63,946 nucleotides of DNA, filler included, from Stramenopiles sp. TOSAG23-6 (GCA_900128565.1; 33 parts of 33 records of this genome joined end to end with filler, not necessarily neighbours in it), one strand, 5' to 3'. Counted from the whole stretch's first letter, positions 1-62,705 are shown. The notes: generated by a model from the sequence alone, not told the origin. Program-made: numbers and translations.

Positions 1-40
<40 letters not shown>

Positions 41-96
41 GTTAGGTACAAAATTTTCTACAAAAAAAAATTGAAATTGAAATGATGAAAACAAAC

Positions 97-480
97 CTGT
101 CCAACAGCAAAACAAAACCATTCTTGGGGTTTCCATGTTATATTCTCATTATTATTCATTTCATTATGTATTTTTTCTTCTTTTTCTTCATTATGTAAAA
201 CATTTTGTATATTTGTTTTCAAATATTCATCTGTAGGGTTAGGGCTAGGGTTAGGGTTGTACTCACAAATTGGAAATTGACATTGTAATAATTCAGTTGA
301 GTTGAATGTTTCATCGTCGATTGAAATTGATGTTAAATCATTATCCTGATATATTCTACGTAATCTTCGATTAAGTTTATCTTGTTTAACAAAATAAACT
401 TTAGAAATTTTATGTATTTTGAAAAAATATTTTTTTTTTTTGTACAATTTGATTTTTTTGTTAGGTACAAAATTTCCTAC

Positions 481-523
<43 letters not shown>

Positions 524-2588
524 ATATACATAATACTATATTTGAAACAAAACATGTATACAAAAAACATTTTAAAAAATACACACTACAAAAAATGAAA
601 TAAATGATAAATTTCAAAAAAAAAACTTAAATTTGTTAGGTACAAAATTTCGTACGAAAACCAAAAAAAAAAAAAATAAAACATACATCAATTAATTGAA
701 TTTTTTCTGGATTATGCTCTCGATAAAAAAAAAGAAGTTTTTTTTTGAAATTAAACAAATTTAACGAAGTATTTGAAATTGAATTCTTCACTGCAAAATT
801 TTCAAATTGTTTTTCTGAATTTTCTGAATTTTCAAATTGTTTTTCTGAATTTTCTAAATTTTCTGATTTTACGAATTGTGCTTCTGAATTTTTTGAATTT
901 TCAGAATTTTCAGAATTTTCAAAATTTTTTTCATCATTTTCAAAATTTTCAAAATTTTTTCCATCATTTTTATAAAATTCATAATTTTTAGTAAACCCAA
1001 CCAATAGAACTTTTTTTATTGGAACAGGTAATTGAAAACGTTCTCCTATATGCCATGAATATAGTGCACTCCATTTTGTCTTTGTACCCGGTACCCAACA
1101 TGTCACTTCTCCAAAGTTATCAACTGATTGCAAAATAAATGTTTTTTTTTTTTTTTGGTTTTCGTAAAAATTTTTTTTTTTTTGGTTTTCGTAAAAAAAT
1201 TTTTTTTGTGAAAAATTACAAAAAACTGGAAGCCAACATAACGCATGTATTGTTTTTGTGTGATCAACATTAAAAGGCGTTGCAGTAAATATCCCAAATG
1301 TTTTGGGTGGACCGGGTACACCCTGAGAGAGTACACTTGACAAATTCGAAATTGATTTTTTTTTCGTAGAAAATTCCGTACCTAATTCCGTACCTAAACT
1401 ACGAAAAGTACATACACAATTACCTTGACTCAAAAACAGTGCAGTGACGTCATCACTACCATTTTTATTTTTCCATTTCGCTTGGATTTTTATTGTACGA
1501 TGATGATGTGGAGTTAGGGTTAGGGTTTCATTAGGGTTAGGGTTATAAATACTCGAAAATGCTAGAGACAATATCTTTGGAATTACCCAATGTATTTTCG
1601 TAACTCCTTTATTTGTATTTGTAGTAGGGTTAGGGTTACCTGAAAAAAAGTTTGGAAATGTAAATGAAATCATAATCAGAGCATTTTTTGTATCATTAGG
1701 GTTAGGGCTTTTTGTTGTATTTTTTGTATCATTAGGGTTAGGGCTTTTTGTAGTATTTTTTGTGTCCTGTACACAAAAAAAAGGCGAACAAACTAAATTA
1801 ACAAAAGATAAATATTGACTTTTTTTTTCATAATGGTTATAATCATTTAATTTTCCAGACACCCAAAATTGATTCATATAATATAAATTGTGAAAAAAAA
1901 AATTCTAAAAAAAAAAAAATGTTTAGGTACAAAATTTTGTATGAAATTTTTTTTTACGTACAATTAGGGTTAGGGTTAAAAAATAAATGAAATTCTTTTT
2001 ATAACATACATGGAGATTTCTTTGGCAAATCACGAAATATATGAATATCTGGTAAACTACCTAAAGTATACAATTGTGTATATACTTCAGATTTACCTGA
2101 TAATTGTCTGAACACCAAATATCGTGAAAAAATATTTTCAAAAAAAAAAAATGTTAGGTACAAAATTTACTACAAAAAAAAAAAAAAAAAAAAAATTGAT
2201 AAAACATTTTTGATACTTAAAATGTACAATTCAATTAATTCAATGGTGCCATTTGGTGTATAGTCTATTCGCAATAACCAAAACCTATTTACAACTGAAG
2301 TTAACATTGTTTTATTAAGTGGTTTATTAGGGTTAGGGTTATCAATAGACGCAGCACTAGGGTTAGGGTTATCAATAGACGCAGCACTAGGGTTAGGGTT
2401 TTGTGGAGGGGACACAAATTTTTTAAATGACATGGTGGCAAAAAACGATTTGGATAGTATGTTTTTAGATGTCTTATTACGCCGAATCATATGATCCCCT
2501 GCAATACATGTATAATAAGAAAATATTTGTAAACGTTTGAAATGAGTCAAGTACAAAATTTTCTAGAAAAAAAAATTGAAAAAAACAG

Positions 2589-2629
<41 letters not shown>

Positions 2630-2694
2630 GAAAAAATTTCAAAAAAAAAAATTTTTAAAAAAAATTTTTTAAAAAAAAAAAATAAAAAAAAAAA

Positions 2695-2734
<40 letters not shown>

Positions 2735-4019
2735 GTAAAAATTTCATACAAAAAAAAAATTGATATTGAAATGATGAAAAACATACATTGTACACTTGTG
2801 CATTCTGGAATTTTTATCCAAACCAATTTTTGTGAAGATAAAGTTTCATTTTGTAACATATCTTTTGAAAAAATATTTCAAAAAAAAATCGTTAGGTACA
2901 AAATTTCGTACGAAACCNAAAAAAAAANCATTNCGAATTTGAAAAAACATAAAACATACACATAATGCATCTTAAATGTTGTATTCATTTTATCTTCTAA
3001 CCAAAAATGACACGAAAAATCAACAGATACTGTATATAACAAATTTAATAAACCCATGTATTGTGAAAAAGAATCGATTTGTTTTTTGTAAAAAAAATGT
3101 TAGGTACGAAATTTTCAAAAAAAAAAAAAATATAAAAATTTTGTATGAAAATTTTGTATGAAAATTTTGTATGAAAATTTTGTATGAAAACATATATACA
3201 AGATGGTGATTCTGGGCGCCAAGCAAAATCAATGAGAGGAAGGACGTGATATAATAAACTTAAATCCCAATTACATGAAATGTTCCATACCATTATTTCG
3301 TGTTGTCCTCGAAATGTTGCGGCTAAAAAACGATTATCGGGAGAAAACGAGAAGGATGTGCCTGCACTGTGAAAAAAAAAAAAATCGTTAGGTATGAAAT
3401 TTCGTATGAAAAAAATATAAAAAAANAAAANAAAAAAAAAAAACGTTAGGTACGAAATTTCGTATGAAAAAAATTAAAAAAAAAAAAACATACACTCTCG
3501 TTCCACAGGGGTGGAGATTTTCTTTACACATGAAAAAGAACATTTGTTATCCACTTTTTCAAGCATATTTGAACGATTTCGTTCCCATATTGACAAATTT
3601 GATAAGGAGGCTGATGCTATAAATTGTCCAGATTTTGAAGAAGATAAAGCATATGATGAATAAATTGTATCGTCTGAAGATATAATCAAAGGTCCAATCC
3701 AGTGCACATTTGGATTCCAACTAGACACTGAATTTAATTCGTTATTGTCATTGGGAGAAGCTGTCCATTGACATAGATGTATTAATATGTTTCCTAGTGA
3801 TGCAGATAAGAAATTTCCGTTGGACTGCCAATGAACAGCTGATATATCATCTGAATGATCTAAAAACCGTGCTAGTGGATATGGTGAATCACCCACACAA
3901 TGGAAAACAGTAATAATGGATCCTTCCGCAGAAAGTGCAAGGTGCAAACCACGGACGTACATATAATCCCATAGAGCAGGCACACATTTATTGGTAGCGG
4001 GGATATGTGGGACTTCCAT
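97..4019 (-). CDS. Multi-exon WD40-repeat protein, 3' end off the contig (possibly Rav1/DMXL-like)
   Basis: WD-like segments (AVHWQSNGNFLSAS, FIASASLSNLSIWE, FSFSPDNRFLA) join in frame after removing family introns 3362-3493, 2117-2227 and 1883-2009; some exon boundaries are unresolved. Confidence 0.55.
484..521. repeat. (TA)n microsatellite
   Basis: Uninterrupted TA dinucleotide run. Confidence 0.95.
2117..2227 (-). other. Family intron, GT...TT
   Basis: GAA TT|GTACAT...TTTTCACGATATTT|G GTG restores an open frame (IELIEL-VFRQ); branch motif present. Confidence 0.6.
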
Positions 4020-7988: not shown

Positions 7989-9277
7989 ATGAAATATGTT
8001 ACTGAAGCGTCGTCTCCATCCGTTGGAGGATTAGTTGTGTTGAGTGCAATTTCTCAATCTATTCGAACGTTTCTTGGCCCATGTGACTCCATAAAATGTG
8101 TTCCTGTTTCTAGTGATATACCTGAATTTGTTTGTGACCCTCTCAGTGTGATTGACAGTTTTGATTTGAAGAACCCAGTGGCAACATTGCTTCGTGACGC
8201 TTGCTTCGGTCTTTATAATCATGAAGGTTTAGGAGTCACGACATTTGTAACACTGGTGGGTTTATTGAGTGATGAGGCTATGCGGCTGTTACACAGTGGT
8301 ACATCAAAGGAACATATTTGTACAATATTTAAATCTGCCGCCGTTATCTGCAATGACGTTTGTCATCGTTCAAAAATACCCTTGGACCATTTGTTCCCAA
8401 ACAAATCTAGTTCTACACGAAATCACGTTACACTTGAAGACGATTATGATATTATTGACGATACATCATGGTTCTTTGAAGAATGTAGTAGTAGCAGTAG
8501 TGAAGAAGAAGATAAGAAAGCATCTTCTACTAATGAACAATGTATAATAAATACTATTGGTCGTTCTTTGCAACATACAATCTCCCCAAATAACTCAAAT
8601 AACTCAAATACATTAAATAACCCTAACCCTAGTACCTCAAAAACAGTAAAAACAATAAAAACAATAAAAACAGTAAACACTAAAAATACATCAAACATTA
8701 AAAATATGGAATTAGACGTTGCCATGACTCTAGCAGTCGAGGCGACACGTATTTTACTCAATATAACAAAGACAAGTACTATTGGAGATATTATGGATGT
8801 TTTATTTTTTTTCAATTTTTTATCTATATTTTTTTTTTTCGTACGAAATTTTGTACCTAACAAAAAAAAAGTTTTTTTTTTTGAAATATTTTTTCAAAAT
8901 ATATTGGTCATGATATAAATTGTAAACGAATTAGGGTTAGGAAAATAATTGGCTCTTCGTCTGTTGGACTGAATAAGGTAGGGTTAGGGTTAGGATCTTC
9001 AGTTCATGCTGAAATATTATTACCAATACATCCAACAATGTATGTTTTTTTTTTATTTTTAAATTCGAATTTAGTTTTGTTTTTCGTACGAAATTTTGTA
9101 CCTAACAAATTTTCAAATTATTTTTTTTGAAATATTTTTCTAAAATACATATCAAATACTATTAAACTTGGATTATCAAAGGCAAATACGAATGCTTTAT
9201 ACACTATTGTAGTGAATGGTGAATGTTTGTATGATAAAGGAATCCGAAGTGGTGCAGGAATATATGCAAATGAAAAT
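7989..9277 (+). CDS. Chaperonin-like protein (BBS12/CCT-like), 5' part
   Basis: IRTFLGP and NPVATLLRDAC...GLGVTTFVTL match the group II chaperonin N-terminus with a degenerate GDGTT; continues across introns at about 8795-8904 and 9040-9150. Confidence 0.65.
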
Positions 9278-9542: not shown

Positions 9543-12317
9543 CTGAAGCTTCTTCATGGAGTGGACAAGAGGCTGTGATGGAATCGATTAGTGCTCTTGA
9601 AGTGAAAATGTACGTTGTTTCATCATACATTTCAATTTTATTTTTATTCATACGAAATTTTATTCCTAACATAAAAAAAATCGAATTTGACATATTGTCC
9701 CAAAATACATTGTCGATGAAAAGCAATCGGCAGAAAATTCTAACAGGAATATATATATGGATATTATTCCAGAGGAAAGTGAATTGGTATCAATAAAACC
9801 TGCCAAAATCGCAAAAGTTATAGATTTCAATCTGGAAGATGGTTATGTACGTTTTCATTCTGAATTTCATTTTTTTTTGATACAAAATTTTGTACCTAAT
9901 GAATTTTTTTTGGATGTTTGTTTTCATGATGAATTTCATTTTTTTTTTTTCAAAACATTCCATACCTAACAATGTTTCTTCTTATTATTATTTTTTTCAC
10001 AAGACATGGTGGTCCGGGTGTAAATACAGACATTTTCGAAGCAATTGTCCCCGCTGCTGCCGCTGATGCAGCTGAGGAATATCACGCAAAACTTACAATT
10101 TTACTAGCAGAAAGCAGAGGTGAAGCAAATCTTCAGAGTGATCTTGCTAGAGCTCAACTTGCTTCTCTTGGTCTCCCTGCTGCAATTGAGGCTTCAAGTA
10201 CCTCCCCTGGATTACCCACAAAGACTTGGGAAAGTGTTTTTGCCTTACAATCAAAAGGCGGCCCACAAAATCTACTCCAGCAACTCAATAATGGTACGAA
10301 AAAACGTCAAAATGTCATTGGAATGCTTGACCAGGTTGATAAACTACTCGATATCGAAGCAAAGGAGGATGAATGTGCTCGTAATGAGCATGGGAAGTTA
10401 TGGCAACGTGAAAATTCATCACAAATTTCTACTCAGTATAAAGTTCAAATACAGAAGTATCGCAAATCAATAATCAAAGCAGCTTCCTCAGATGATATCA
10501 TTGCATCGAAGCTACGTCATGCAGATAGTGGTGGCGAAGGTGAAGGTTGGATGCAAATTATGTATAATAAATCTAAATTAGATTCTCTTCTACCAGGTAG
10601 TCTCGACGCAGACCAGAACTCATTTGCTGAGAAGCAAGCTCTTCAGAAGAGTTTGATTGAACTAGGCAATTTATTAAATTCTCGTGATGATTTACTTGAA
10701 AAAATGGAATCAATGGGAAAGAAAGAAGCTGCAAATATTGTCGTTACTCTTACGCGAGATAAAGAAGGTGTACGAGAGGATGGTACTGGCAAATTTAATA
10801 TTGCAGATAAAGAAGGTTTAATTATAAGGGAATTATCAAAATTTGATGAAATTTTGAAACAGATCAAAGATTCTTGTACAAGCCAAATTTCTCTTCTTTC
10901 TCAGATTTCAGAATCGAATGAACGATTTTTAAAAGCCCGTACCGCAACTGAATCAACTATACAAAGACAACGTGTTTTACAAAGTATTCAACAAGCATTG
11001 GTGTTATTTGCTGAAATAGAGGGAAACCTAAAAGAAGGAAATACATTCTACACTAACTTAGTTAACTCGACAACACAATTGCTTTCCTCTGTGTCGGATT
11101 TTTGTTCAACTCGTACATCCGAAATGAATCATTTGATTGATCAAATTGCTGAAAAGAAGAAATCAGATGCCGCTGCCTTTTACTCTGCAAAAGCTGAACA
11201 TGACAGAATGATGAAAGCTGAAGAACAAAAGCAACAACAAAAACAACAATTATCTAATACTTCACATGTGATTCAAAATCCCAGAAATCCGAGAGAAGCG
11301 TATGCAACTTTATGTAGCCCACCACCACCACCGGTGAATCAGCATAATTTTCAGAGTGGACGAGGTACATATGTGGGTCAAACTCAGTACAACAATGGTG
11401 TGTTGCCTATGAATGTTCCAGCTGCATCGGCTCCAAGAGCACCGGCTCCCAGATATAGTCATAGTCAAAATCCATCAATTGCCCCTAGCAATGTAGCAAG
11501 CCCTGCTCGACAACCTCCACCCAGTTATAATACCGTGAAACCTTTGCCTCAACAGCGTATAGCCAACAATACTCCACCTGCACCTCAATACCATGAATTT
11601 CGTCAATCGCCAACTGTTGGTCAAGCATATCAGCCCCATGTGCCTACGTCTGCTAGCAATATAGCAAGCCCTGCTCGACAACCTCCACCCAGTTATAATG
11701 CCGTGAAACCTTTGCCTCAACCGCGTACAGCCAATAATACCCCCCCTGCACCTCAATACCATGAATTTAATCAATCGCCACGTATTCGCCAGGCAACACA
11801 CACACCTTCTGGGCCTACAACACAACACCAAAATAGGCCACCTCCTGTATATCGCCCTGTAGCACCTACTGGGTTGCCAACTTATGCAGAAGCTCGACCT
11901 GTTCCAAAATCAAAACCAACATATTCTCTACATCAACCTGTAGTGAATGCCCATGCTGTTGGCACACCACTGCCTAATCATTCTTTACATCAACCTGTAG
12001 TGAGCGCCCATGCTGTTGGCACACCACCGCCTAATCAGACGAGTGTGTCAGCTCGCGTGTCTGCTGTACCTGCATATCAGACAGTAATAGCAAAACCCTT
12101 AACTAATACTGCCTCACCTGGTTATACTGCTTCAAACGTTCAATCAAATGTCGTCGTACATGCAAAGCCTATTGATGCTCCTGTACCTTCACAGTATTCT
12201 AGTCAGCTTCAATCCTTGAAACAAATGGGATTTACGAATGATACAGCTAATTGTAGAGCATTAGAGAAAGCAAAAGGAAATGTAGATGAAGCAATCGAGA
12301 TTCTTTTATCTGGTTGA
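9543..12317 (+). CDS. ALIX/Bro1-family protein (end of Bro1 domain, V domain, Pro-rich region, C-terminal UBA)
   Basis: Spliced AENSNRNIYMDIIP...DIFEAIVP, LASLGLPAAIEA, NLKEGNTFYTNL and UBA LKQMGFTNDTANCRALEKAKGNVDEAIE. Confidence 0.9.
9610..9710 (+). other. Family intron, GT...AT
   Basis: AAA AT|GTACGT...CCCAAAATACAT|T GTC restores EVKI-VDEK and the Bro1 NxxIY motif. Confidence 0.85.
9847..10007 (+). other. Family intron, GT...AT, with doubled internal modules
   Basis: GGT TAT|GTACGT...TTCACAAGACAT|GGT GGT is in frame; the AG 4 nt upstream is out of frame. Confidence 0.8.
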
Positions 12318-21885: not shown

Positions 21886-22786
21886 ATGCAAATCATTGAT
21901 ACATCCGAACCAACAGAACCAGCTCCATCAGANCCAGCACAATCCACAACACCTGGTTCATTTGAGGAAGCTGGGATAATGATTGATATGGCTTATAATG
22001 CTTGTATTGAAGGCGGGGAAGCTACAACAAAATCTATTGATAAAGTTTACAATGTATTAATTAAAGGCAAGAAAAATGTGTTAGAATTAGTGGGTCGAAA
22101 CTTAGATAATGCAATAGCGAGAGAAAAGGAAACAGCGGCGAAAATTAATGTAGACAATAAAGCTGCGGAGAATGCCCAAATTTTTGCAAACGAGGATGAA
22201 GCAAATGTGAAGTTGCAAGAAGATGCCAGGCGATTACGAATATTGGCTGAAGAGACTCTTTACCAGTCGTTTGCATCGGTAGATCTAAGAAAAAAACTCG
22301 TAAGAAAATCCGTTGTAATTTTAATGGCACTCACCCAAGCTTCATTCAGATCAAAAAAACTAGCAATTGCCATAGCTCATTATACAAAGTTGCTTAGAAA
22401 TGAATCTGACTATATTTTACACCAATACAATGAGGAAAGAGAAAAGATAATGTTACAGGAATATCTCCGTAGAGAGTATGTAAACCAAATATTTGGATTA
22501 CACGGTGGACATTCGATATTAAATGATGTTAGAGACAAAGAGGAGAAAAAAGAACCTTGGACAGACCCTATAATTATTGAAGATGATCAACCTATAATTG
22601 TTGACCAGGTCAATGTATGTTTTATTTTTTTTCAATTTCCAATTTATTTTTCGTACGAAATTTTGTACCTAACGATTTTTTTTGAGATATTTTTCCAAAA
22701 TACATGGAATCACTATGTCAAATAATCAGAATACACCAATGCTTCTGGTAGATCGTTCAACAACACAACCCTTTAAACACAGGTAG
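21886..22786 (+). CDS. Hypothetical coiled-coil protein, 3' part
   Basis: Open frame; GT-AT intron 22615-22705 leads to a short last exon ending in TAG. Confidence 0.6.
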
Positions 22787-24898: not shown

Positions 24899-26166
24899 GT
24901 TCATTCATACTGTGAGAGCCAACCGATCGGTTTAATTCACCAGATCGCATAAGTGAATGAACTTCAGTTGAATTATGGACAAGAGTTTTTTTAAGTCCAG
25001 AAACACAATTTTTGCCATTTGCTGTTTTACGAATCTCCAAATTTTCAAATTTTTCACCTTTAGATCTGATTTTTAATAAATCATGGATTTGTTCATTATA
25101 AATTTCAAACATACTCATTTTAATAGTATATTTTATATCTGCTTCACGATTCGTCGATACCTCAAAAAGACGATCAATGTATTTTGGAAAAATATTTGAA
25201 AAAAAAATCGTTAGGTACAAATTTTCGTACGAAAAAATAAATTCGAAATTAAAAAAAAATAAAACATACATGGATCTATAATTTACACCAGGATCATCAG
25301 GAGGCCCTTGCATCGTATATGTTTTCCCTGATCCTGTTTGTCCATATGCAAAAATACAAACATTATGTATTTTGGAAAAATATTTCAAAATTTTCTAAAA
25401 AAAAAAATTCGTTAGGTACAAATTTTTTTTTTTCCGTAAAAAAAAAAAAAAAAATAAAACATACATAACCATCCATCACAGAAGTAATAAGTGGAGAAAC
25501 ATCCTCAAATACTTGTTTTTGTGAACTTTCTCCACTGAAAACACGATCAAACTCAAATCTTCGAACATCTTGAATAATATTCGTTTTATTCGTTTTTGTT
25601 TTATCAATATTTAAATGAACAGAAATATCATGAGGAGATGGAAAATATATACAATTTTTAGTAAATGTTGCATCATCGCGATTTTTTTCACTGTCTACAA
25701 TTGGACGAACTCTACAAAACACTCGAATGGATGTATTTTGGAAAAATATTTCAAAAAAAATCTTTAAAAATTTGTTAGGTACAAAATTTTTTTACCAAAA
25801 AAAAAAAAAAAAGATAAAAAATTGAAAAAAAAAAAACATACATCCTTGTAATTCAATCAATTTGTTATGTATTTTTCTTCTACGCATAGATTCGTCTGTA
25901 TAGAGTGAAACTGCATCGGTTACTTGTTTTTGCATTAACATTTTTGTTTCATTTACTGCTATTACTTGATTTCGTAAGCATTCTTCTGCTTTTTTAGACA
26001 CTGCAACGTCCAAAGCTTTTGCAGCCATAGATGTAGTATGAAAAATTTAAAATTAAAAAAAAATCGTTAGGTACGAAATTTCGTATGAAAAAAAAATTCG
26101 ATTTTTTTGTAAAAAAAAAAAATACAACATACATGTCATCTTGAAGAACCCAGAAAGCTTTCCACC
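24899..26166 (-). CDS. Kinesin-14 (C-terminal motor) fragment, five exons
   Basis: Spliced [42 protein letters not shown] and FEIYNEQIHDLL. Confidence 0.95.
25177..25269 (-). other. Family intron, GT...AT
   Basis: TCC AT|GTATGT...CCAAAATACAT|T GAT gives GVNYRSIDRLF; no AG in the 3' part of the intron. Confidence 0.9.
25365..25464 (-). other. Family intron, GT...AT
   Basis: GGT TAT|GTATGT...CCAAAATACAT|AAT GTT exactly restores the conserved [13 protein letters not shown]. Confidence 0.92.
25731..25841 (-). other. Family intron, GT...AT
   Basis: GGA T|GTATGT...CCAAAATACAT|CC ATT restores [14 protein letters not shown]. Confidence 0.9.
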
Positions 26167-30644: not shown

Positions 30645-32001
30645 ACCATGCTTTTCAGGTGGACTTGGATGGAGCAGTGGCTGTATACCAGCGGATCGAT
30701 GCCCTGGGTTTCAGGTCGCGCCTGCGTTACTCTCAGTATAGGATGTTGGAAGCGTCCGTGCGCGGCAAAGAGTCGGGCGAAACTTTGTGCCGGGCTTTGC
30801 AATTGGTTGCCGTTGACCCTGGCATTTACAACTACACCCTGTCGCGTGCAGAGGAAAAGAGCCTCCCCAAGCGCGCCTGCATACCCGATATGATTTGTCA
30901 AATGATGAGTTTGATCTTCGATGGACAGGGTCACTGGATCGCAGCTGCCCGAGACGTCTTCACGACATGGCCTGCAAAGTACCTGTCTCCACTCGTCCAA
31001 CTCCTTCAGAAAATCATCACTCGTGAGATCATGCAAGAGGCCTCGAGGAAGCCCCAGTGTAGCGTCATCTGCAAAGGCGCTGTGAAAGCTCTGGACTTGC
31101 TGTGGAGGGCCAACTGCGCCTGTACTGATGTGCGCCACGCACTGAATGAAGAAGAGTTTTACAACGAAGGAGTGAATGCAGTGGTGGACATGAGAGCCCA
31201 AGCGCCGCTCTGTTCCTGCTGTCCGCGTGAATCCAACACGTTTGACTTTTGCGCCTACCCGTTTCTCTTGGACGCCGCCTCGAAGGCGAAGATTCTCAGC
31301 ACAGTCACCCGCCACCACAAGGTACTTGCGGCGGAAAGAAGGCTTATCGAGCAATACCGACGCGGACGGCGTAACGATGGTGGGTCATCTCGTATGTTGG
31401 CAATTGGCTCCACTCACCCGTACATTTATGTAATTAATGTACGACGCGGTCACGTTGCAGAAGATGTGATGAGCATGCTCAGAAAAGCCAAATCGAAAAA
31501 GCAGCGCCGTGTATTTGCAAAAGAACTCGTGGTCAAGTTTCGGGGCGAAGATGCGGTCGATCAGGGGGGACCGGCGAAAGAGTTCTTCCAGCTGCTGATG
31601 CGTGAGCTTCTCAGCCCTGAATTTGGGCTGTTTCGGTACGAACAGGATGATGATCGTCACTGGTTTTGTGCCAGTGACCCCCGAAACACGCAAATTCAGG
31701 GGCATTACAGGGCAGCAGGCGCCGCCTTTGGCCTCGCTGTGTACAACGGTGTCCTCGTTGACGCCCGTTTTCCTCGAACCTTGTACGAGCAGCTCATCTC
31801 ATCAAGCAAACTGCCGTCTCAGGGCATTGATCAACTGGAGAAGGGCTTCCCATCGCTTGCACGTGGGTTGCGCAGGCTGCTTGACCTCGACGATGCTTCA
31901 ATCAGAGCTCTGGAGCTGACGTTTGAGGCCTCTGCGCCGGCCGCACCGGCCGGGGAAATGCGCTCCTTTGAGCTGGTTGAGGGGGGGAGCGGACAAGCCA
32001 G
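30645..32001 (+). CDS. HECT E3 ubiquitin ligase (HERC-like) fragment, GC-rich contig
   Basis: FCAYPFLLDAASKAKIL and LVVKFRGEDAVDQGGPAKEFFQLL, GLAVYNGVLVDARFP. Confidence 0.9.
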
Positions 32002-32101
32002 NNNNNNNNNNNNNNNNNNNNNNNNNNNNNNNNNNNNNNNNNNNNTTAATTAATTAANNNNNNNNNNNNNNNNNNNNNNNNNNNNNNNNNNNNNNNNNNN
32101 N

Positions 32102-33458
32102 CTGCAGCAGCTTTCTCGTTGTATGATTANAATGGTGATGGTGTCATNTCTNTNGACGAAATGACACGATATTTGACCTCCGTATTTAGAGTAATGTACG
32201 AAGCTCAGCCTGGAACTTTGGAACGTATGGGTGGAGTAGATGCAGACGAACTTGCTGACGCTACGGCACGTCAGGCATTTGCTGAAGCTGACGTTGATGA
32301 AGATGGTATGTTAACCTTTGAAGAGTTCCAAGACTGGTATTCACAGCCAACTGACAACTCATCTGGTGCATTGACTGCTGCTACTACTGCAGCTCCAGGA
32401 TGGGTATCTCTTGGCGAAGTTCGTCGTTTGACAAACTTGGGAGCATTTCGCGTCGATGAAGTACTTGAACTATTTGCTAACGCAACTGATGATGAAGGAT
32501 ACGTATCAACTGATGACTTTGCTGATTGCTTTGAAGCTCTCGTAGGCTCTGGTCCTGAACAAAGTTATGATGACCAAGAAAAGACACGACTTGTTCTCAG
32601 CCGTTTGTACGACTTGTTTGATACAAATGGTGATGGTGTAGTTGACTTTACGGAGCTTGCTACTGGTTTAACTGTCCTTTGTGGTGGTACTCGTGATCAG
32701 AAAGCTGCAGCAGCTTTCTCGTTGTATGATTACAATGGTGATGGTGTCATCTCTCTTGACGAAATGACACGATATTTGACCTCCGTATTNAAAGTNATGT
32801 ATGAAACTCAACCAGGTACATTAGAACGTATGGGTGGAGTCAGTCCAGAAGACCTCGCAGATGTTACAGCGCGACATGCATTTGCTGAAGCTGATGTTGA
32901 TGAAGATGGTATGTTAACCTTTGAAGAATTTCAAGAATGGTACGAAACACCGACGGATAATTCATCAGCAATGGATCAAGATGAATTATTATCTTCTGGG
33001 GAAGGTTGGGGATCTCTTGGCGAAGTTCGTCGTTTGACAAACTTGGGAGCATTTAGTGTCGATGAAGTACTTGAACTATTTGCTAATGCCACTGATGATG
33101 AAGGATACGTATCGACAGAAAACTTTGCAGATTGTTTTGAACTTCTCGTAGATGCTGGTCCTGATCAAACTTATGAAGACCAGGAGAAGACGCGGATGGT
33201 TTTGGGTCAATTGTATGGGTTGTTTGATACTAATGGTGATGGTGTAGTTGACTTTACTGAACTTGCTACTGGTTTGACTGTCCTTTGTGGTGGCACTCGT
33301 GATGAAAAGGCTGCAGCTGCTTTCTCGTTGTATGATTACAATGGTGATGGTGTCATCTCTCTTGACGAAATGACACGATATTTGACCTCCGTATTNAAAG
33401 TNATGTATGAAACTCAACCAGGTACATTAGAACGTATGGGTGGAGTCAGTCCAGAAGA
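32102..33458 (+). CDS. Tandem recoverin/calcineurin-B-like EF-hand repeat protein fragment
   Basis: Repeated DTNGDGVVDFTEL, DYNGDGVISLDEM and DVDEDGMLTFEEF in units of about 200 aa. Confidence 0.9.
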
Positions 33459-35066: not shown

Positions 35067-36241
<1,175 letters not shown>

Positions 36242-58150: not shown

Positions 58151-58402
58151 NNNNNNNNNNNNNNNNNNNNNNNNNNNNNNNNNNNNNNNNNNNNTTAATT
58201 AATTAANNNNNNNNNNNNNNNNNNNNNNNNNNNNNNNNNNNNNNNNNNNNATGTACGTTTTCATCATGAATTTCTAATTTATTTATTTTTTTCATACGAA
58301 ATTTTGTACTTAAACAAAAAANATTTTTTTTTTTTTGACATGTATGTTTTCATCATGAATTTCTAATTTATTTCGAATTTGACATATTTTTTCACAAGAC
58401 AT

Positions 58403-59316
58403 GGAGCATCTTGTCCAGTAGGCATTGGTGTAAGTTGTAGTGCCGACCGTCAAGCTTGGGGGAAGATCACTGAAGAGGGTGTGTTTATTGAAGAATTAGA
58501 ACGTGACCCTGCTAAATACTTGCCTGATATTGATGAAAAAACTTTACTTGGTGGTGGTGATGTTCACGAGGTGAATTTAAATGATGGCATGGATAAAGTA
58601 TTATTGAAACTAAATGAATTACCAGTCAAATCTAGAGTATCTCTCACAGGCACGTTAGTAGTTGCTAGAGATATTGCACATGCTAAACTTTTGGAAAGAT
58701 TAAATAAGGATGGAGAGTTGCCACAGTATATGTACGCTTTCATTATAATTTATTTTTTTCCACTAGACTTATTTTTTCATACCAAAATTTGTACCTAATA
58801 AATTCTACATTTTTTTTTTTCACAATATAGGCGTGACCATCCTGTTTATTATGCAGGCCCTGCGAAAACTCCTGAAGGAATGGCATCTGGATCATTTGGT
58901 CCAACAACTGCAGGACGCATGGATAGTTATGTTGATGCATTCCAAGCAGCTGGCGGTAGTAAAATTATGCTTGCAAAAGGAAATCGAAGTAGCCAAGTGA
59001 CTCAATCATGTTTGTTCTCTCATTATGATTTGTTTTTGAAATATTTTTTTTCATTGAAATTTTTGTACCTAACAAAAATATCATTTTTTTTGAAATATTT
59101 TTTCACAACTCATGTAAAAAGCATGGCGGATTTTATTTAGGATCTATTGGAGGACCTGCGGCAGTTTTGGCTATGAATTGTATTAAAAAAGTCGAAGTAT
59201 TGGAATATGAAGAATTAGGTATGGAGGCTGTTTGGAAGATCGAAGTAGAGAATTTTCCTGCCTTTGTCGTGGTTGACAATAAAGGAAATGATTTTTTTTC
59301 TAAATGGCAAGCGTAA
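58403..59316 (+). CDS. Class I (Fe-S) fumarate hydratase, C-terminal exons
   Basis: [50 protein letters not shown]...[22 protein letters not shown]. Confidence 0.95.
58732..58830 (+). other. Family intron, canonical GT...AG
   Basis: TAT AT|GTACGC...CACAATATAG|G CGT gives PQYMRDHP. Confidence 0.85.
59010..59113 (+). other. Family intron, GT...AT
   Basis: TCA T|GTTTGT...TTCACAACTCAT|GT AAA gives VTQSCKKHGG; the intron contains no AG at all. Confidence 0.92.
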
Positions 59317-59851
59317 AAAAATGATATAATAAAGTATTGTTGACAATATCAGATTTATTATTGAAAAGATTCAAGTACCGATGGATAAGTTTTCTATTGA
59401 CTCATAAATTTCAATACTATCGTTAGGTCCTTTCTTTATACTATTATTAGGGTTAGGATTGGCTTCTTTCTTTAAACGATTATGAATACTTTTTACATTT
59501 ATTAGTATCTCTTTTTTAGATGTATTTATAATTTTTGGATTTTTTTTTTCTATCTCTTTTTTAGATGTATTTATAATTTTTGGATTTTCTTTTTCTATCN
59601 NNNNNNNNNNNNNNNNNNNNNNNNNNNNNNNNNNNNNNNNNNNTTAATTAATTAANNNNNNNNNNNNNNNNNNNNNNNNNNNNNNNNNNNNNNNNNNNNA
59701 TGTACGTTTTCATCATGAATTTCTAATTTATTTATTTTTTTCATACGAAATTTTGTACTTAAACAAAAAANATTTTTTTTTTTTTGACATGTATGTTTTC
59801 ATCATGAATTTCTAATTTATTTCGAATTTGACATATTTTTTCACAAGACAT

Positions 59852-60765
59852 GGAGCATCTTGTCCAGTAGGCATTGGTGTAAGTTGTAGTGCCGACCGTC
59901 AAGCTTGGGGGAAGATCACTGAAGAGGGTGTGTTTATTGAAGAATTAGAACGTGACCCTGCTAAATACTTGCCTGATATTGATGAAAAAACTTTACTTGG
60001 TGGTGGTGATGTTCACGAGGTGAATTTAAATGATGGCATGGATAAAGTATTATTGAAACTAAATGAATTACCAGTCAAATCTAGAGTATCTCTCACAGGC
60101 ACGTTAGTAGTTGCTAGAGATATTGCACATGCTAAACTTTTGGAAAGATTAAATAAGGATGGAGAGTTGCCACAGTATATGTACGCTTTCATTATAATTT
60201 ATTTTTTTCCACTAGACTTATTTTTTCATACCAAAATTTGTACCTAATAAATTCTACATTTTTTTTTTTCACAATATAGGCGTGACCATCCTGTTTATTA
60301 TGCAGGCCCTGCGAAAACTCCTGAAGGAATGGCATCTGGATCATTTGGTCCAACAACTGCAGGACGCATGGATAGTTATGTTGATGCATTCCAAGCAGCT
60401 GGCGGTAGTAAAATTATGCTTGCAAAAGGAAATCGAAGTAGCCAAGTGACTCAATCATGTTTGTTCTCTCATTATGATTTGTTTTTGAAATATTTTTTTT
60501 CATTGAAATTTTTGTACCTAACAAAAATATCATTTTTTTTGAAATATTTTTTCACAACTCATGTAAAAAGCATGGCGGATTTTATTTAGGATCTATTGGA
60601 GGACCTGCGGCAGTTTTGGCTATGAATTGTATTAAAAAAGTCGAAGTATTGGAATATGAAGAATTAGGTATGGAGGCTGTTTGGAAGATCGAAGTAGAGA
60701 ATTTTCCTGCCTTTGTCGTGGTTGACAATAAAGGAAATGATTTTTTTTCTAAATGGCAAGCGTAA
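59852..60765 (+). CDS. Duplicate contig of the fumarate hydratase
   Basis: Identical copy at offset 1449. Confidence 0.9.
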
Positions 60766-61300
60766 AAAAATGATATAATAAAGTATTGTTGACAATATCA
60801 GATTTATTATTGAAAAGATTCAAGTACCGATGGATAAGTTTTCTATTGACTCATAAATTTCAATACTATCGTTAGGTCCTTTCTTTATACTATTATTAGG
60901 GTTAGGATTGGCTTCTTTCTTTAAACGATTATGAATACTTTTTACATTTATTAGTATCTCTTTTTTAGATGTATTTATAATTTTTGGATTTTTTTTTTCT
61001 ATCTCTTTTTTAGATGTATTTATAATTTTTGGATTTTCTTTTTCTATCNNNNNNNNNNNNNNNNNNNNNNNNNNNNNNNNNNNNNNNNNNNNTTAATTAA
61101 TTAANNNNNNNNNNNNNNNNNNNNNNNNNNNNNNNNNNNNNNNNNNNNATGTACGTTTTCATCATGAATTTCTAATTTATTTATTTTTTTCATACGAAAT
61201 TTTGTACTTAAACAAAAAAGATTTTTTTTTTTTTGACATGTATGTTTTCATCATGAATTTCTAATTTATTTCGAATTTGACATATTTTTTCACAAGACAT

Positions 61301-62214
61301 GGAGCATCTTGTCCAGTAGGCATTGGTGTAAGTTGTAGTGCCGACCGTCAAGCTTGGGGGAAGATCACTGAAGAGGGTGTGTTTATTGAAGAATTAGAAC
61401 GTGACCCTGCTAAATACTTGCCTGATATTGATGAAAAAACTTTACTTGGTGGTGGTGATGTTCACGAGGTGAATTTAAATGATGGCATGGATAAAGTATT
61501 ATTGAAACTAAATGAATTACCAGTCAAATCTAGAGTATCTCTCACAGGCACGTTAGTAGTTGCTAGAGATATTGCACATGCTAAACTTTTGGAAAGATTA
61601 AATAAGGATGGAGAGTTGCCACAGTATATGTACGCTTTCATTATAATTTATTTTTTTCCACTAGACTTATTTTTTCATACCAAAATTTGTACCTAATAAA
61701 TTCTACATTTTTTTTTTTCACAATATAGGCGTGACCATCCTGTTTATTATGCAGGCCCTGCGAAAACTCCTGAAGGAATGGCATCTGGATCATTTGGTCC
61801 AACAACTGCAGGACGCATGGATAGTTATGTTGATGCATTCCAAGCAGCTGGCGGTAGTAAAATTATGCTTGCAAAAGGAAATCGAAGTAGCCAAGTGACT
61901 CAATCATGTTTGTTCTCTCATTATGATTTGTTTTTGAAATATTTTTTTTCATTGAAATTTTTGTACCTAACAAAAATATCATTTTTTTTGAAATATTTTT
62001 TCACAACTCATGTAAAAAGCATGGCGGATTTTATTTAGGATCTATTGGAGGACCTGCGGCAGTTTTGGCTATGAATTGTATTAAAAAAGTCGAAGTATTG
62101 GAATATGAAGAATTAGGTATGGAGGCTGTTTGGAAGATCGAAGTAGAGAATTTTCCTGCCTTTGTCGTGGTTGACAATAAAGGAAATGATTTTTTTTCTA
62201 AATGGCAAGCGTAA
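61301..62214 (+). CDS. Third copy of the fumarate hydratase contig
   Basis: Copy at offset 2898, identical except for one N resolved to G. Confidence 0.9.
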
Positions 62215-62705
62215 AAAAATGATATAATAAAGTATTGTTGACAATATCAGATTTATTATTGAAAAGATTCAAGTACCGATGGATAAGTTTTCTATTGACT
62301 CATAAATTTCAATACTATCGTTAGGTCCTTTCTTTATACTATTATTAGGGTTAGGATTGGCTTCTTTCTTTAAACGATTATGAATACTTTTTACATTTAT
62401 TAGTATCTCTTTTTTAGATGTATTTATAATTTTTGGATTTTTTTTTTCTATCTCTTTTTTAGATGTATTTATAATTTTTGGATTTTCTTTTTCTATCNNN
62501 NNNNNNNNNNNNNNNNNNNNNNNNNNNNNNNNNNNNNNNNNTTAATTAATTAANNNNNNNNNNNNNNNNNNNNNNNNNNNNNNNNNNNNNNNNNNNNTTT
62601 TTTTTAGAAATTTTTTTTTTTAGAAATTTTTTTTTTTAGAAATTTTTTTTTTAGAATTTTTTGTACCTAACAATTTTTTTTTCTGATATATTTGTAGCAT
62701 TACAT

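What the first reader, a model, noticed from the sequence alone, without database searches (positions are those of the whole stretch)
8835..8862. Highly conserved extended branch-site module TTTCGTACGAAATTTYGTACCTAAC
Seen roughly 60 times by eye, nearly always in the sense of the host gene and about 30-55 nt before the acceptor. The core TACCTAAC differs from both the U2 consensus TACTAAC and the U12 consensus TCCTTAAC. The variant GTACGAAATTTCGTAC is a perfect palindrome directly upstream of CTAAC, although the left arm varies more than the right. Inference: a long branch signal could compensate for the lost AG, through extended pairing to a variant U2-like snRNA or through a hairpin or protein site.
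Basis: partly seen in the sequence, partly recalled or inferred. Interest (0 to 1): 0.85.

Follow-up and report, generated by a model that had tools for sequence, protein, structure and literature searches.

The report
Branch-site box of copied introns
A 25-letter motif seen about 60 times is the middle of a family of near-identical short introns that has spread through the genes of an uncultured marine protist; its last six to eight letters behave as the branch site, and the rest looks like inherited family sequence.

Summary
GTACCTAAC occurs 47 times against 0.19 expected. A sequence-only model finds 63 non-redundant copies of the module.

Each copy lies inside a 90-190 nt, about 16% G+C intron. 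The intron starts GTATGT or GTACGT. The module is followed by a T-run and a conserved 10-nt end block. The branch A sits a median 40 nt before the intron end.

Removing the 31 complete introns restores the longest reading frame in 25. Kinesin and fumarase homology is seamless across three of them. 24 of 31 end in AT, not AG.

The introns are introner-like: unrelated genes carry copies up to 92% identical, and there are tandem and antisense copies.

Only the right end of the module shows signs of selection. CTAAC is kept in 38 of 41 copies at the branch position, but in 2 of 9 extra or antisense copies. GTAC is kept equally in both classes.

The left arm marks subfamilies, and the hairpin shows no covariation.

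A variant U2 could not be tested, because no genome is held. So this is a canonical-type CTAAC branch site inside a young family consensus. The extended-pairing and hairpin ideas are unsupported.

The parts
8837..8861 (+). The module named in the finding: the full 25-nt consensus of the most uniform subfamily
   Evidence: 0 mismatches
8853..8861 (+). Core GTACCTAAC. CTAAC is the inferred branch site, with the second A of TAAC as the inferred branch nucleotide
   Evidence: Branching itself has not been mapped
8799..8904 (+). Host intron of the finding, with a weak GTTTTA donor. The 3' border lies at 8902 or 8904 within an ATATAT run
   Evidence: the frame test prefers the border 2 nt upstream
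9040..9150 (+). Next intron of the same gene (GTATGT ... module 9082-9106 ... TACAT)
25365..25464 (-). Kinesin intron ending CAT. It bypasses a TAG that starts 16 nt after the core
   Evidence: PDB numbering is seamless: 3l1c_A 58-135 then 136-163
25177..25269 (-). Kinesin intron ending CAT. It is 92% identical to intron 22615-22705 in an unrelated gene
   Evidence: (5wde_A 81-110, then 116-195 for query residues 4-85)
22615..22705 (+). Intron of the most uniform subfamily in an unrelated gene
61908..62011 (+). Fumarate hydratase intron (GTTTGT ... CTCAT). The same contig is present three times in the window
   Evidence: homologue residues run on across the junction (q332-501, then q500-565, overlapping because TCATGT stands at both borders)
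631..659 (-). Extra upstream module in a two-module intron (412-686). The module next to the acceptor is at 457-484
1362..1390 (+). Antisense copy with two cores (CTAAT, CTAAA), inside an inferred GTAATT...CAG intron (1323-1423) of a minus-strand gene
   Evidence: The intron borders were read by eye and not frame-tested
39096..39123 (+). Antisense module inside a minus-strand intron whose own branch box is ATACCTAAC (39006-39030)
49407..49422 (+). The only perfect GTACGAAATTTCGTAC palindrome in the window

Best explanation
The module is the central part of an introner-like family of short spliceosomal introns. The family has multiplied in the genes of an AT-rich, uncultured marine protist.

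What is functional (inferred). The right end of the module, CCTAAC, usually seen as TACCTAAC, is an ordinary major-spliceosome branch site. CUAAC would pair with the GUAG of U2 snRNA with the second A bulged out as the branch nucleotide. The box lies about 40 nt upstream of the 3' splice site and a T-rich tract follows it.

What is inherited. The rest of the 25 nt is consensus sequence inherited from the source elements: the TTTCGTACGAAA left arm, the AAATTT spacer and probably GTA. The perfect or near-perfect palindrome belongs to one subfamily (the most uniform, probably the youngest) and is not a conserved RNA structure.

Shown:
- the copies are introns that are removed exactly at GT...AT or GT...AG borders;
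- they form a repeat family;
- CTAAC is kept preferentially in copies that sit at the branch position.

Inferred:
- the branch nucleotide;
- pairing with a canonical U2;
- a transposon-like mode of spread.
For: 1. The copies are introns.
- 31 complete copies start with GT (GTATGT 14, GTACGT 7) and are about 16% G+C.
- Their removal gives the longest frame across the junction in 25 of 31, plus 1 tie. Chance is 1 in 3; binomial p=9e-8.
- PDB kinesin numbering runs on without gap or overlap across two of them. Fumarase homologues do the same across a third.

2. They form a family.
- There are 63 non-redundant module copies in 64 kb.
- The best pair, in unrelated genes, is 92% identical over its full length. 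The median pairwise identity is 60%.
- There are tandem or nested copies and 2 antisense copies.

3. The anatomy is that of a branch site.
- The branch A lies a median 40 nt (26-49 in 30 of 31) from the intron end.
- T makes up 57-80% of the next 8 positions.

4. Constraint differs along the module.
- When introns are defined without using the core, the exact 9-mer is still present: in 19 of 26 by the 3' end block (23 of 26 at <=1 mismatch), and in 19 of 30 donor-like sites, repeated contigs and likely false sites included.
- The exact left arm is present in only 6 of 31, and an upstream box in 11 of 31.

5. Natural experiment.
- CTAAC is kept in 38 of 41 sense modules next to an acceptor.
- It is kept in 2 of 9 modules that cannot serve as the branch site (6 extra upstream copies, 3 antisense cores). 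Fisher p=4e-5.
- A wider curated set gives 41 of 47 against 2 of 9, p=2e-4.
- GTAC shows no such difference: 36 of 41 against 7 of 9, p=0.59.

6. Diverged introns keep CCTAAC or CTAAC while GTA changes (GTGCCTAAA, ATTCCTAAC, TTGCCTAAC, CGTCCTAAC).
Against: - No branch point has been mapped, and no spliced RNA of these genes was seen. The one read-laying run gave no clean junction.
- U2 snRNA of this organism could not be read. Pairing with a canonical GUAGUA is therefore assumed.
- TACC is invariant in all 50 copies compared. With a canonical U2 the extra C cannot pair, so something beyond CUAAC may be recognised.
- The non-functional class has only 9 members. Seven of them differ at the same last C, which stands next to an A-run or a CpG. 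Mutation bias therefore contributes.
- Module copies were selected by similarity to the core, which inflates its apparent conservation. The two independently defined sets only partly remove this.
- A transposon origin is not shown. The 2-nt direct repeat at the borders (19 of 31) is no more frequent than composition predicts (16.5). No autonomous element and no intergenic copies could be looked for in 1.3-kb contigs.
Confidence: 0.7

Rival explanations
1. First reader's model. The 8-9 nt box UACCUAAC, or a longer stretch, pairs over its whole length with a variant U2 snRNA whose branch-binding segment carries an extra G (GUAGGUA...). This strong duplex compensates for the missing AG at the 3' splice site.
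For: - TACC is invariant in all 50 cores compared.
- AAATTT just upstream is 88-98% conserved.
- With a canonical GUAGUA the extra C would have to bulge or mismatch (reasoned from the recalled textbook U2-branch pairing).
- 24 of 31 introns lack AG, and 3 of them skip a YAG downstream of the box. 3' site choice is therefore unusual in this organism.
Against: - GTAC is kept equally in copies that cannot act as branch sites (7 of 9 against 36 of 41).
- Diverged but still in-frame introns lose GTA and keep CCTAAC.
- AG-ending members carry the same box.
- The GUAGUA segment of U2 is, from recalled knowledge, invariant in eukaryotes studied so far, so the prior is low.
Confidence: 0.1
2. The module, especially its GTAC-centred palindromes, is a DNA-level signal of the mobile element, for example a binding or cleavage site for the enzyme that copies it, or a site for an RNA-binding protein. 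It is conserved because only elements that carry it multiply, not because each intron needs it for branching.
For: - TTTCGTACGAAA and GTACGAAATTTYGTAC are palindromes, as DNA-binding sites often are.
- The full module is best preserved in the most uniform, probably youngest, copies.
- GTAC is retained regardless of orientation or position.
Against: - The left arm is intact in only 6 of 31 complete introns, and several subfamilies carry different left arms.
- This model does not explain why CTAAC is lost in extra and antisense copies but kept next to acceptors.
- It does not explain the fixed distance window to the 3' end.
Confidence: 0.12
3. The palindrome forms an RNA hairpin that presents CUAAC at its 3' foot and so aids branch-site or 3' site choice.
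For: In copies with the CGTACG left arm, the minimum-energy fold contains a 5-6 bp stem ending just before CCUAAC (seen in about 9 of 31 folds).
Against: - There are 0 pairs with compensatory change.
- The closing G-C pair forms in 16 of 42 distinct sequences, and the C-G pair in 17 (19 with G-U).
- 70.6% of cells are paired, against 70.9% in shuffles and 73.4% with partners slid by 2.
- Whole-intron folding is weak: mean z is -1.15, and 8 of 31 fall below -2.
Confidence: 0.03

Closest known systems
Introner elements: transposon-derived intron families of Micromonas, Aureococcus, dinoflagellates, fungi and others (PMC9860276, seen only as a search listing with the start of the abstract; PMC12130899, passages read; Huff et al. 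2016, recalled)
   Same: - Many near-identical short introns in unrelated genes.
- Each copy carries its own splice signals.
- Copies are strongly biased to the sense strand.
- There are tandem, nested and occasional antisense copies.
- The host is aquatic.
   Different: - Most copies here end in AT rather than AG.
- No clear terminal inverted repeats were found.
- No target-site duplication beyond what composition explains.
- No autonomous partner element was seen.
- The host organism is unidentified.
Introner elements with non-canonical borders in Amoebophrya (PMC7789003, passages read)
   Same: - A marine protist.
- Repeated introns whose borders escape GT-AG.
- Short direct repeats overlap the exon-intron borders, so the exact cut is ambiguous by a few letters.
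   Different: - Amoebophrya elements have 8-20 nt inverted repeats that join the intron ends, and no fixed terminal dinucleotides.
- Here the 5' end is a classical GTATGT or GTACGT.
- The 3' end here is a fixed YAT within a 10-nt block.
- Here there is a strong internal branch box and no terminal hairpin.
Non-canonical introns of the tunicate Fritillaria borealis, recognised by divergent U2AF paralogues (PMC13326754, abstract and outline read)
   Same: A major-type spliceosome that accepts non-AG 3' ends across the genome. It offers a protein-based route (altered U2AF) to AG-independent 3' site choice, without any change in U2 snRNA.
   Different: - In Fritillaria the 5' GT is also lost, and the host is an animal.
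- No shared branch box is mentioned in the abstract.
- U2AF genes of the present organism could not be examined.
The UACUAAC branch box of budding yeast and other intron-poor species (recalled textbook knowledge)
   Same: - A near-invariant 7-8 nt box that ends in CUAAC.
- It is paired with a GUAUGU donor.
- It lies tens of nucleotides upstream of the 3' site.
   Different: - There is an extra C (UACCUAAC).
- The host genes are intron-dense, with an intron every 100-300 nt in some contigs.
- Uniformity here comes at least partly from recent copying.
U12-type (minor) intron branch site TCCTTAAC (recalled)
   Same: An 8-nt conserved box ending in AAC, and non-AG ends occur in that class.
   Different: - The donor is GTATGT or GTACGT, not the ATATCC or GTATCC type.
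- The box lies 26-49 nt from the end, not 10-26.
- The box sequence differs.

Membership tests
Major (U2-type) spliceosomal intron branch site | CURAY / yUnAy-type motif with a branch A | tested here: met
   CTAAC is present in 38 of 41 sense modules next to an acceptor, and in 41 of 47 in the wider curated set.
Major (U2-type) spliceosomal intron branch site | Position roughly 18-50 nt upstream of the 3' splice site, followed by a pyrimidine tract | tested here: met
   The distance is 26-49 nt in 30 of 31 introns, median 40. A T-rich stretch follows.
Major (U2-type) spliceosomal intron branch site | Host intron has a GT donor of the GTRNGT type and is removed precisely | tested here: met
   All 31 complete introns start with GT. 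The frame test succeeds in 25 of 31. Homology runs on seamlessly across 3 junctions.
Major (U2-type) spliceosomal intron branch site | Host intron ends in AG | tested here: not met
   Ends are AT in 24, AG in 6 and TT in 1 of 31.
Major (U2-type) spliceosomal intron branch site | 2'-5' branch forms at the A; the motif pairs with the GUAGUA segment of U2 snRNA | not testable with these tools
   No genome is held. There is no snRNA in the window. Only contigs of public runs were laid, and they gave no informative joints.
Minor (U12-type) intron | Donor /RTATCCTT and a TCCTTAAC box 10-26 nt from the 3' end | tested here: not met
   Donors are GTATGT, GTACGT and similar. The box is TACCTAAC at 26-49 nt.
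Introner (transposon-derived intron family) | Many introns in unrelated genes share sequence over their full length | tested here: met
   There are 63 copies. The best pair is 92% identical, and further pairs are 78-84%.
Introner (transposon-derived intron family) | Hallmarks of transposition: target-site duplication and terminal repeats | tested here: inconclusive
   - The exon end equals the intron end (mostly AT) in 19 of 31, against 16.5 expected from composition.
- Only about 5-6 nt of end complementarity (ATGTAT / ATACAT) is present, and it does not covary with donor type (read by eye).
Introner (transposon-derived intron family) | Copies outside genes, an autonomous partner element, presence/absence polymorphism | not testable with these tools
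   Contigs of about 1.3 kb, no whole genome.
Structured RNA element (hairpin) | Base pairs kept through compensatory change | tested here: not met
   There are 0 compensatory pairs, and pairing equals the shuffles. The second candidate stem is not significant.

The most novel reading that the evidence does not exclude
An invading intron family and the host's major spliceosome have been re-tuned to each other. The invariant UACCUAAC box would be read over its full length by a U2 snRNA (or an SF1/SF3b site) altered to fit the extra C. Together with the 10-nt end block, this would let the spliceosome choose a YAU 3' site and ignore AG. That would be the first case of a changed U2 branch-binding segment and of genome-wide GT-AT introns.
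Probability: 0.1. Interest if true: 0.9.

Novelty: new variant of a known kind. Interest (0 to 1): 0.6.

Why it matters
The family shows how an intron-generating element can carry a complete, strong set of splice signals into hundreds of genes. It also gives an internal control for telling function from recent copying: modules at the branch position against extra or antisense modules.

The branch box itself is close to ordinary. Its hosts are not: about three quarters of the introns end in AT, and some skip AG dinucleotides. The organism's rules for 3' site choice must therefore differ from the textbook.

If the genome or transcriptome of this protist is recovered, three things can be read directly: its U2 snRNA, its U2AF and SF1 genes, and its lariat reads. 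That would make testable the open question of how far the major spliceosome can drift with the introns it serves.

Tried and rejected
- **Reads.** The second (19, window 1-2917, four runs) covered the gene only in patches and gave no clean splice joint. The listed joints are cross-matches between repeat copies. It says nothing about splicing. It did show that several hundred contigs of these RNA libraries match the intron-module bins and the telomere-like bin at 90-99% likeness. DNA may be present in those libraries.
- **U2 variant.** One metagenome scan with a 20-letter pattern for a U2 with an inserted G gave a single locus (L001). It has no Rfam hit, is not AT-rich and has no TACCTAAC.
- **Module in other collections.** The 17-mer gave 6 single hits in viral contigs and 31 in prokaryote genome contigs, one per locus. 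I judged these chance matches from the size of the collections; no tool computed an expectation.
- **Rfam on the window.** There were 0 matches at gathering scores and 0 at E<=1.
- **Whole genome.** None is held.
- **Spliced ORF.** A search for a spliced fumarase ORF of the same organism among longer proteins found at best 71% identity. The homologues were used instead for the junction check.
- **Pairing of intron ends.** ATGTAT / ATACAT could pair, but GTACGT-type donors are not matched by GTAC-type ends (by eye). Rejected as a conserved helix.
- **Crude strand assignment by longest nearby ORF.** It was confounded by neighbouring contigs and dropped in favour of the frame test.
- **Earlier findings of this scan.** Nothing on this genome or motif.
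- **Literature.** Six searches were run: 'tacctaac' anywhere (377 papers, 20 listed); 'cctaac' + branch point + intron (33 papers, 20 listed); introner/stramenopile/non-canonical; telomeric repeats in coding sequence; MAST-4 introns; GT-AT introns. None of the listed titles describes this motif or family. Supplementary files were not consulted and may hold introner family lists.
- **Organism.** Not identified. The best named matches of one ABC protein (CAF16-like) are mostly stramenopiles, with a plant, a haptophyte and green algae among them, at 44-52% identity. Unnamed environmental relatives reach 62-71%.

Full report
**What the window is.** The window is not one locus. It is a chain of about 36 small contigs (9,386 and 9,377 nt, then about 1,350 nt each) joined by N...TTAATTAATTAA...N linkers, and some contigs occur twice or three times. 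The DNA is from an AT-rich eukaryote. Exons are roughly 30-45% G+C, and the 31 curated introns are 16% G+C. No whole genome is held. Words of the second contig were found only in seawater RNA libraries of four studies. One conserved ABC protein has its best named matches mostly among stramenopiles, at 44-52% identity, and unnamed environmental relatives at 62-71%. I treat the host as an unidentified, uncultured marine protist.

**The observation.**
- The title motif stands exactly at 8837-8861.
- GTACCTAAC occurs 47 times against 0.19 expected.
- The 25-mer occurs 10 times exactly and 39 times at up to 3 mismatches, against none expected.
- A sequence-only model built from 48 aligned copies finds 71 matches at E<=0.01. 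Eight lie in duplicated contigs, which leaves 63. The training copies match by construction.
- The perfect palindrome variant occurs once.

**What the copies sit in.** Each module lies in a short, T-rich segment with this layout: a GT donor (GTATGT 14, GTACGT 7, other GT-hexamers 10), a variable T-rich part, the module, a T-run, and a conserved 10-nt end block of the form CAMAAYAYAK. I curated 31 copies that have both ends within a contig. Donors were picked by a simple score with some manual offsets. Acceptors were picked by a position weight matrix of the end block that does not use reading frames.

Removing these segments gives the longest open frame across the junction in 25 of 31, plus one tie. 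Chance is 1 in 3; p=9e-8. The failures are explained as follows:
- 8799-8904: the border is probably 2 nt upstream.
- 47486-47595 and 47669-47764: these flank a short exon that is open in two frames, and a consistent alternative exists.
- 3056-3199 and 49729-49819: unresolved.

Homology settles three junctions. In the kinesin contig, three successive exons align to the same PDB chains with residue numbers that run on:
- 3l1c_A: 58-135, then 136-163.
- 5wde_A: 6-80, then 81-110, then 116-195 for query residues 4-85.

In the fumarate hydratase contig, full-length homologues run on across the third intron. All three introns end in CAT. Overall, 24 of 31 end in AT, 6 in AG and 1 in TT. Three of the non-AG introns skip a YAG that lies between the box and the true end.

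The exon usually ends in AT as well (21 of 31), so the cut could often be drawn as AT...AC. Seven introns, however, have an AT end without an AT exon end. In six of these the GT...AT border is the one in frame, so GT...AT is the consistent reading.

**A copied family.**
- Introns in unrelated genes are up to 92% identical over their full length (22615-22705 against 25177-25269). Further pairs are 78-84% identical, and the median is 60%.
- Several introns hold two modules in tandem, or a second element start.
- Two copies lie antisense to their host gene, inside introns that use other signals.
- Left-arm variants (CGTACG, CATACG, TGTAGG and others) go partly with donor type, so there are subfamilies (by eye).
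- The most uniform copies carry the CGTACG arm and the CCAAAATACAT end, and all 11 of them end in AT. The AT end therefore looks like a born feature of the element and not a decayed AG.
- This fits the introner picture (PMC9860276, listing only; PMC12130899, passages). The nearest parallel for ambiguous non-canonical borders is Amoebophrya (PMC7789003, passages).
- Hallmarks of transposition are not shown. The 2-nt border repeat is no commoner than composition predicts (19 observed, 16.5 expected), and the small contigs do not allow a search for intergenic or autonomous copies.

**Which part of the module is constrained.** Column identities in module-anchored copies (52 copies, 48) are as follows.

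| Segment | Column identity |
|---|---|
| TACCTAA | invariant, but copies were chosen at <=1 mismatch to the 9-mer |
| AAATTT | 88-98% |
| Base before G | T 75%, otherwise mostly C |
| Left arm CGTACG | 46-90% |

To limit the selection bias I defined introns without using the core:
- By the end block: 19 of 26 unique introns have the exact 9-mer and 23 of 26 have at most 1 mismatch.
- By a donor 9-mer: 19 of 30 scored sites (repeated contigs and likely false sites included) are followed by the exact 9-mer.
- In contrast, the exact left arm is present in 6 of 31 and an upstream ATTTCGAATTT box in 11 of 31.

The core is thus more conserved than the rest of the element.

**A natural experiment.** Some modules cannot be the branch site of their host intron. 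Six are extra copies far upstream of another module, and three cores are antisense. CTAAC is kept in 2 of these 9, against 38 of 41 sense modules next to an acceptor (p=4e-5). With all curated terminal modules, including weak variants, the figures are 41 of 47 against 2 of 9 (p=2e-4). With only <=1-mismatch hits they are 40 of 44 against 2 of 7 (p=1e-3). GTAC is kept alike in both classes (36 of 41 against 7 of 9, p=0.59). Diverged terminal modules keep CCTAAC or CTAAC while GTA changes.

There are caveats. The non-functional class is small. Its changes cluster at the last C, which stands next to an A-run or a CpG, so mutation bias plays a part. TACC is invariant in all 50 copies, so the test has no power there.

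**Hairpin.** The stem GTACGA / TYGTAC has no compensatory change. Its closing G-C pair forms in 16 of 42 distinct sequences. 70.6% of cells are paired, against 70.9% in shuffles and 73.4% with partners slid by two. The alternative stem within TTTCGTACGAAA is not significant. Whole introns fold weakly (mean z -1.15). The hairpin idea is rejected.

**U2.** With the textbook pairing (recalled), CUAAC gives four pairs plus the bulged A with the GUAG of U2. The extra C of UACCUAAC would mismatch, so the upstream UAC cannot extend the helix unless U2 differs. I could not read this organism's U2. There is no genome and no snRNA in the window at any threshold. A metagenome scan for a U2 with an inserted G returned one locus that is not a U2. 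The variant-U2 model therefore stays open at low probability. Fritillaria shows that non-AG ends can instead be handled by divergent U2AF proteins (PMC13326754, abstract).

**Does the box compensate for the missing AG?** AG-ending and AT-ending members carry the same box (exact core in 4 of 6 against 21 of 25, p=0.57). Within the family there is no sign of compensation. The distance from box to end varies from 26 to 49 nt with the length of the T-run, so the box is not a fixed ruler. The conserved end block is the more likely 3' site signal; A at position -2 is 97% conserved, and T at -1 is 81%.

**Verdict.** The module is real and highly non-random. It is the consensus middle of an introner-like intron family. 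Its 3' end is a canonical-type branch site, with evidence of purifying selection. The longer 'extended' signal, the hairpin and the compensation idea are not supported, and a variant U2 remains untested.

The wider system is unusual: a copied intron family with GT...AT borders in conserved genes of an uncultured protist. None of the papers listed by my six searches describes it.

Noticed in passing
whole window; for example 25365-25464(-), 25177-25269(-), 61908-62011(+): About three quarters of the family's introns (24 of 31) end in AT instead of AG, within a conserved 10-nt end block. Three skip a YAG after the branch box. Three non-AG junctions are confirmed by protein homology.
   Followed up: partly
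30 sites, for example 234-255(-), 1515-1541(-), 2328-2397(-), 8622-8631(+), 8932-8994(-), 46245-46348: Telomere-like CCTAACCCTA occurs 30 times against 0.01 expected. Many copies lie in frame inside exons in both orientations, reading NPNP or GLGLG in the ORF translations. They share CCTAAC with the branch box. Origin unknown.
   Followed up: no
window 1-63946: The window is a chain of about 36 small contigs joined by N/TTAATTAATTAA linkers. Several contigs are repeated: the fumarase contig three times (58251-62497) and the ABC-protein contig twice (52451-55250).
   Followed up: partly
window 589-686 and 2843-2917 (bins): In three seawater RNA libraries, one of them poly(A)-selected, several hundred contigs match window 1-2917 at 90-99% likeness, and the intron-module bins reach summed depths in the thousands, while the surrounding exons are barely covered. 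This could reflect many loci, retained introns, stable lariats or DNA in the libraries.
   Followed up: no
58253-58402(+) and its two repeats; 3362-3493(-); 412-686(-); 9847-10007(+); 35430-35618(-): Some introns are built from two elements or two modules in tandem. In the fumarase contig a second element start (GTATGTTTTCAT...) follows directly on a first element's ...GACAT end, as if one element had inserted at the border of another.
   Followed up: partly
all module copies, for example 8853-8861: The reverse complement of the core reads GTTAG|GTAC, which resembles this organism's own donor (AG|GTACGT). An element inserted backwards might therefore offer a donor site. The antisense copy at 1362-1390 lies in an intron with several such GT sites.
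   Followed up: no
30645-33458: Two contigs with about 45% G+C, long open frames, no family introns and many single N. They may belong to another organism in the same assembly.
   Followed up: no
L001 6241-6260: A metagenome contig holds a 20-nt stretch like the 5' part of U2 snRNA with one extra G. It has no U2 fold or Rfam match around it. It is probably a fragment or a chance match and is unrelated to this organism.
   Followed up: partly
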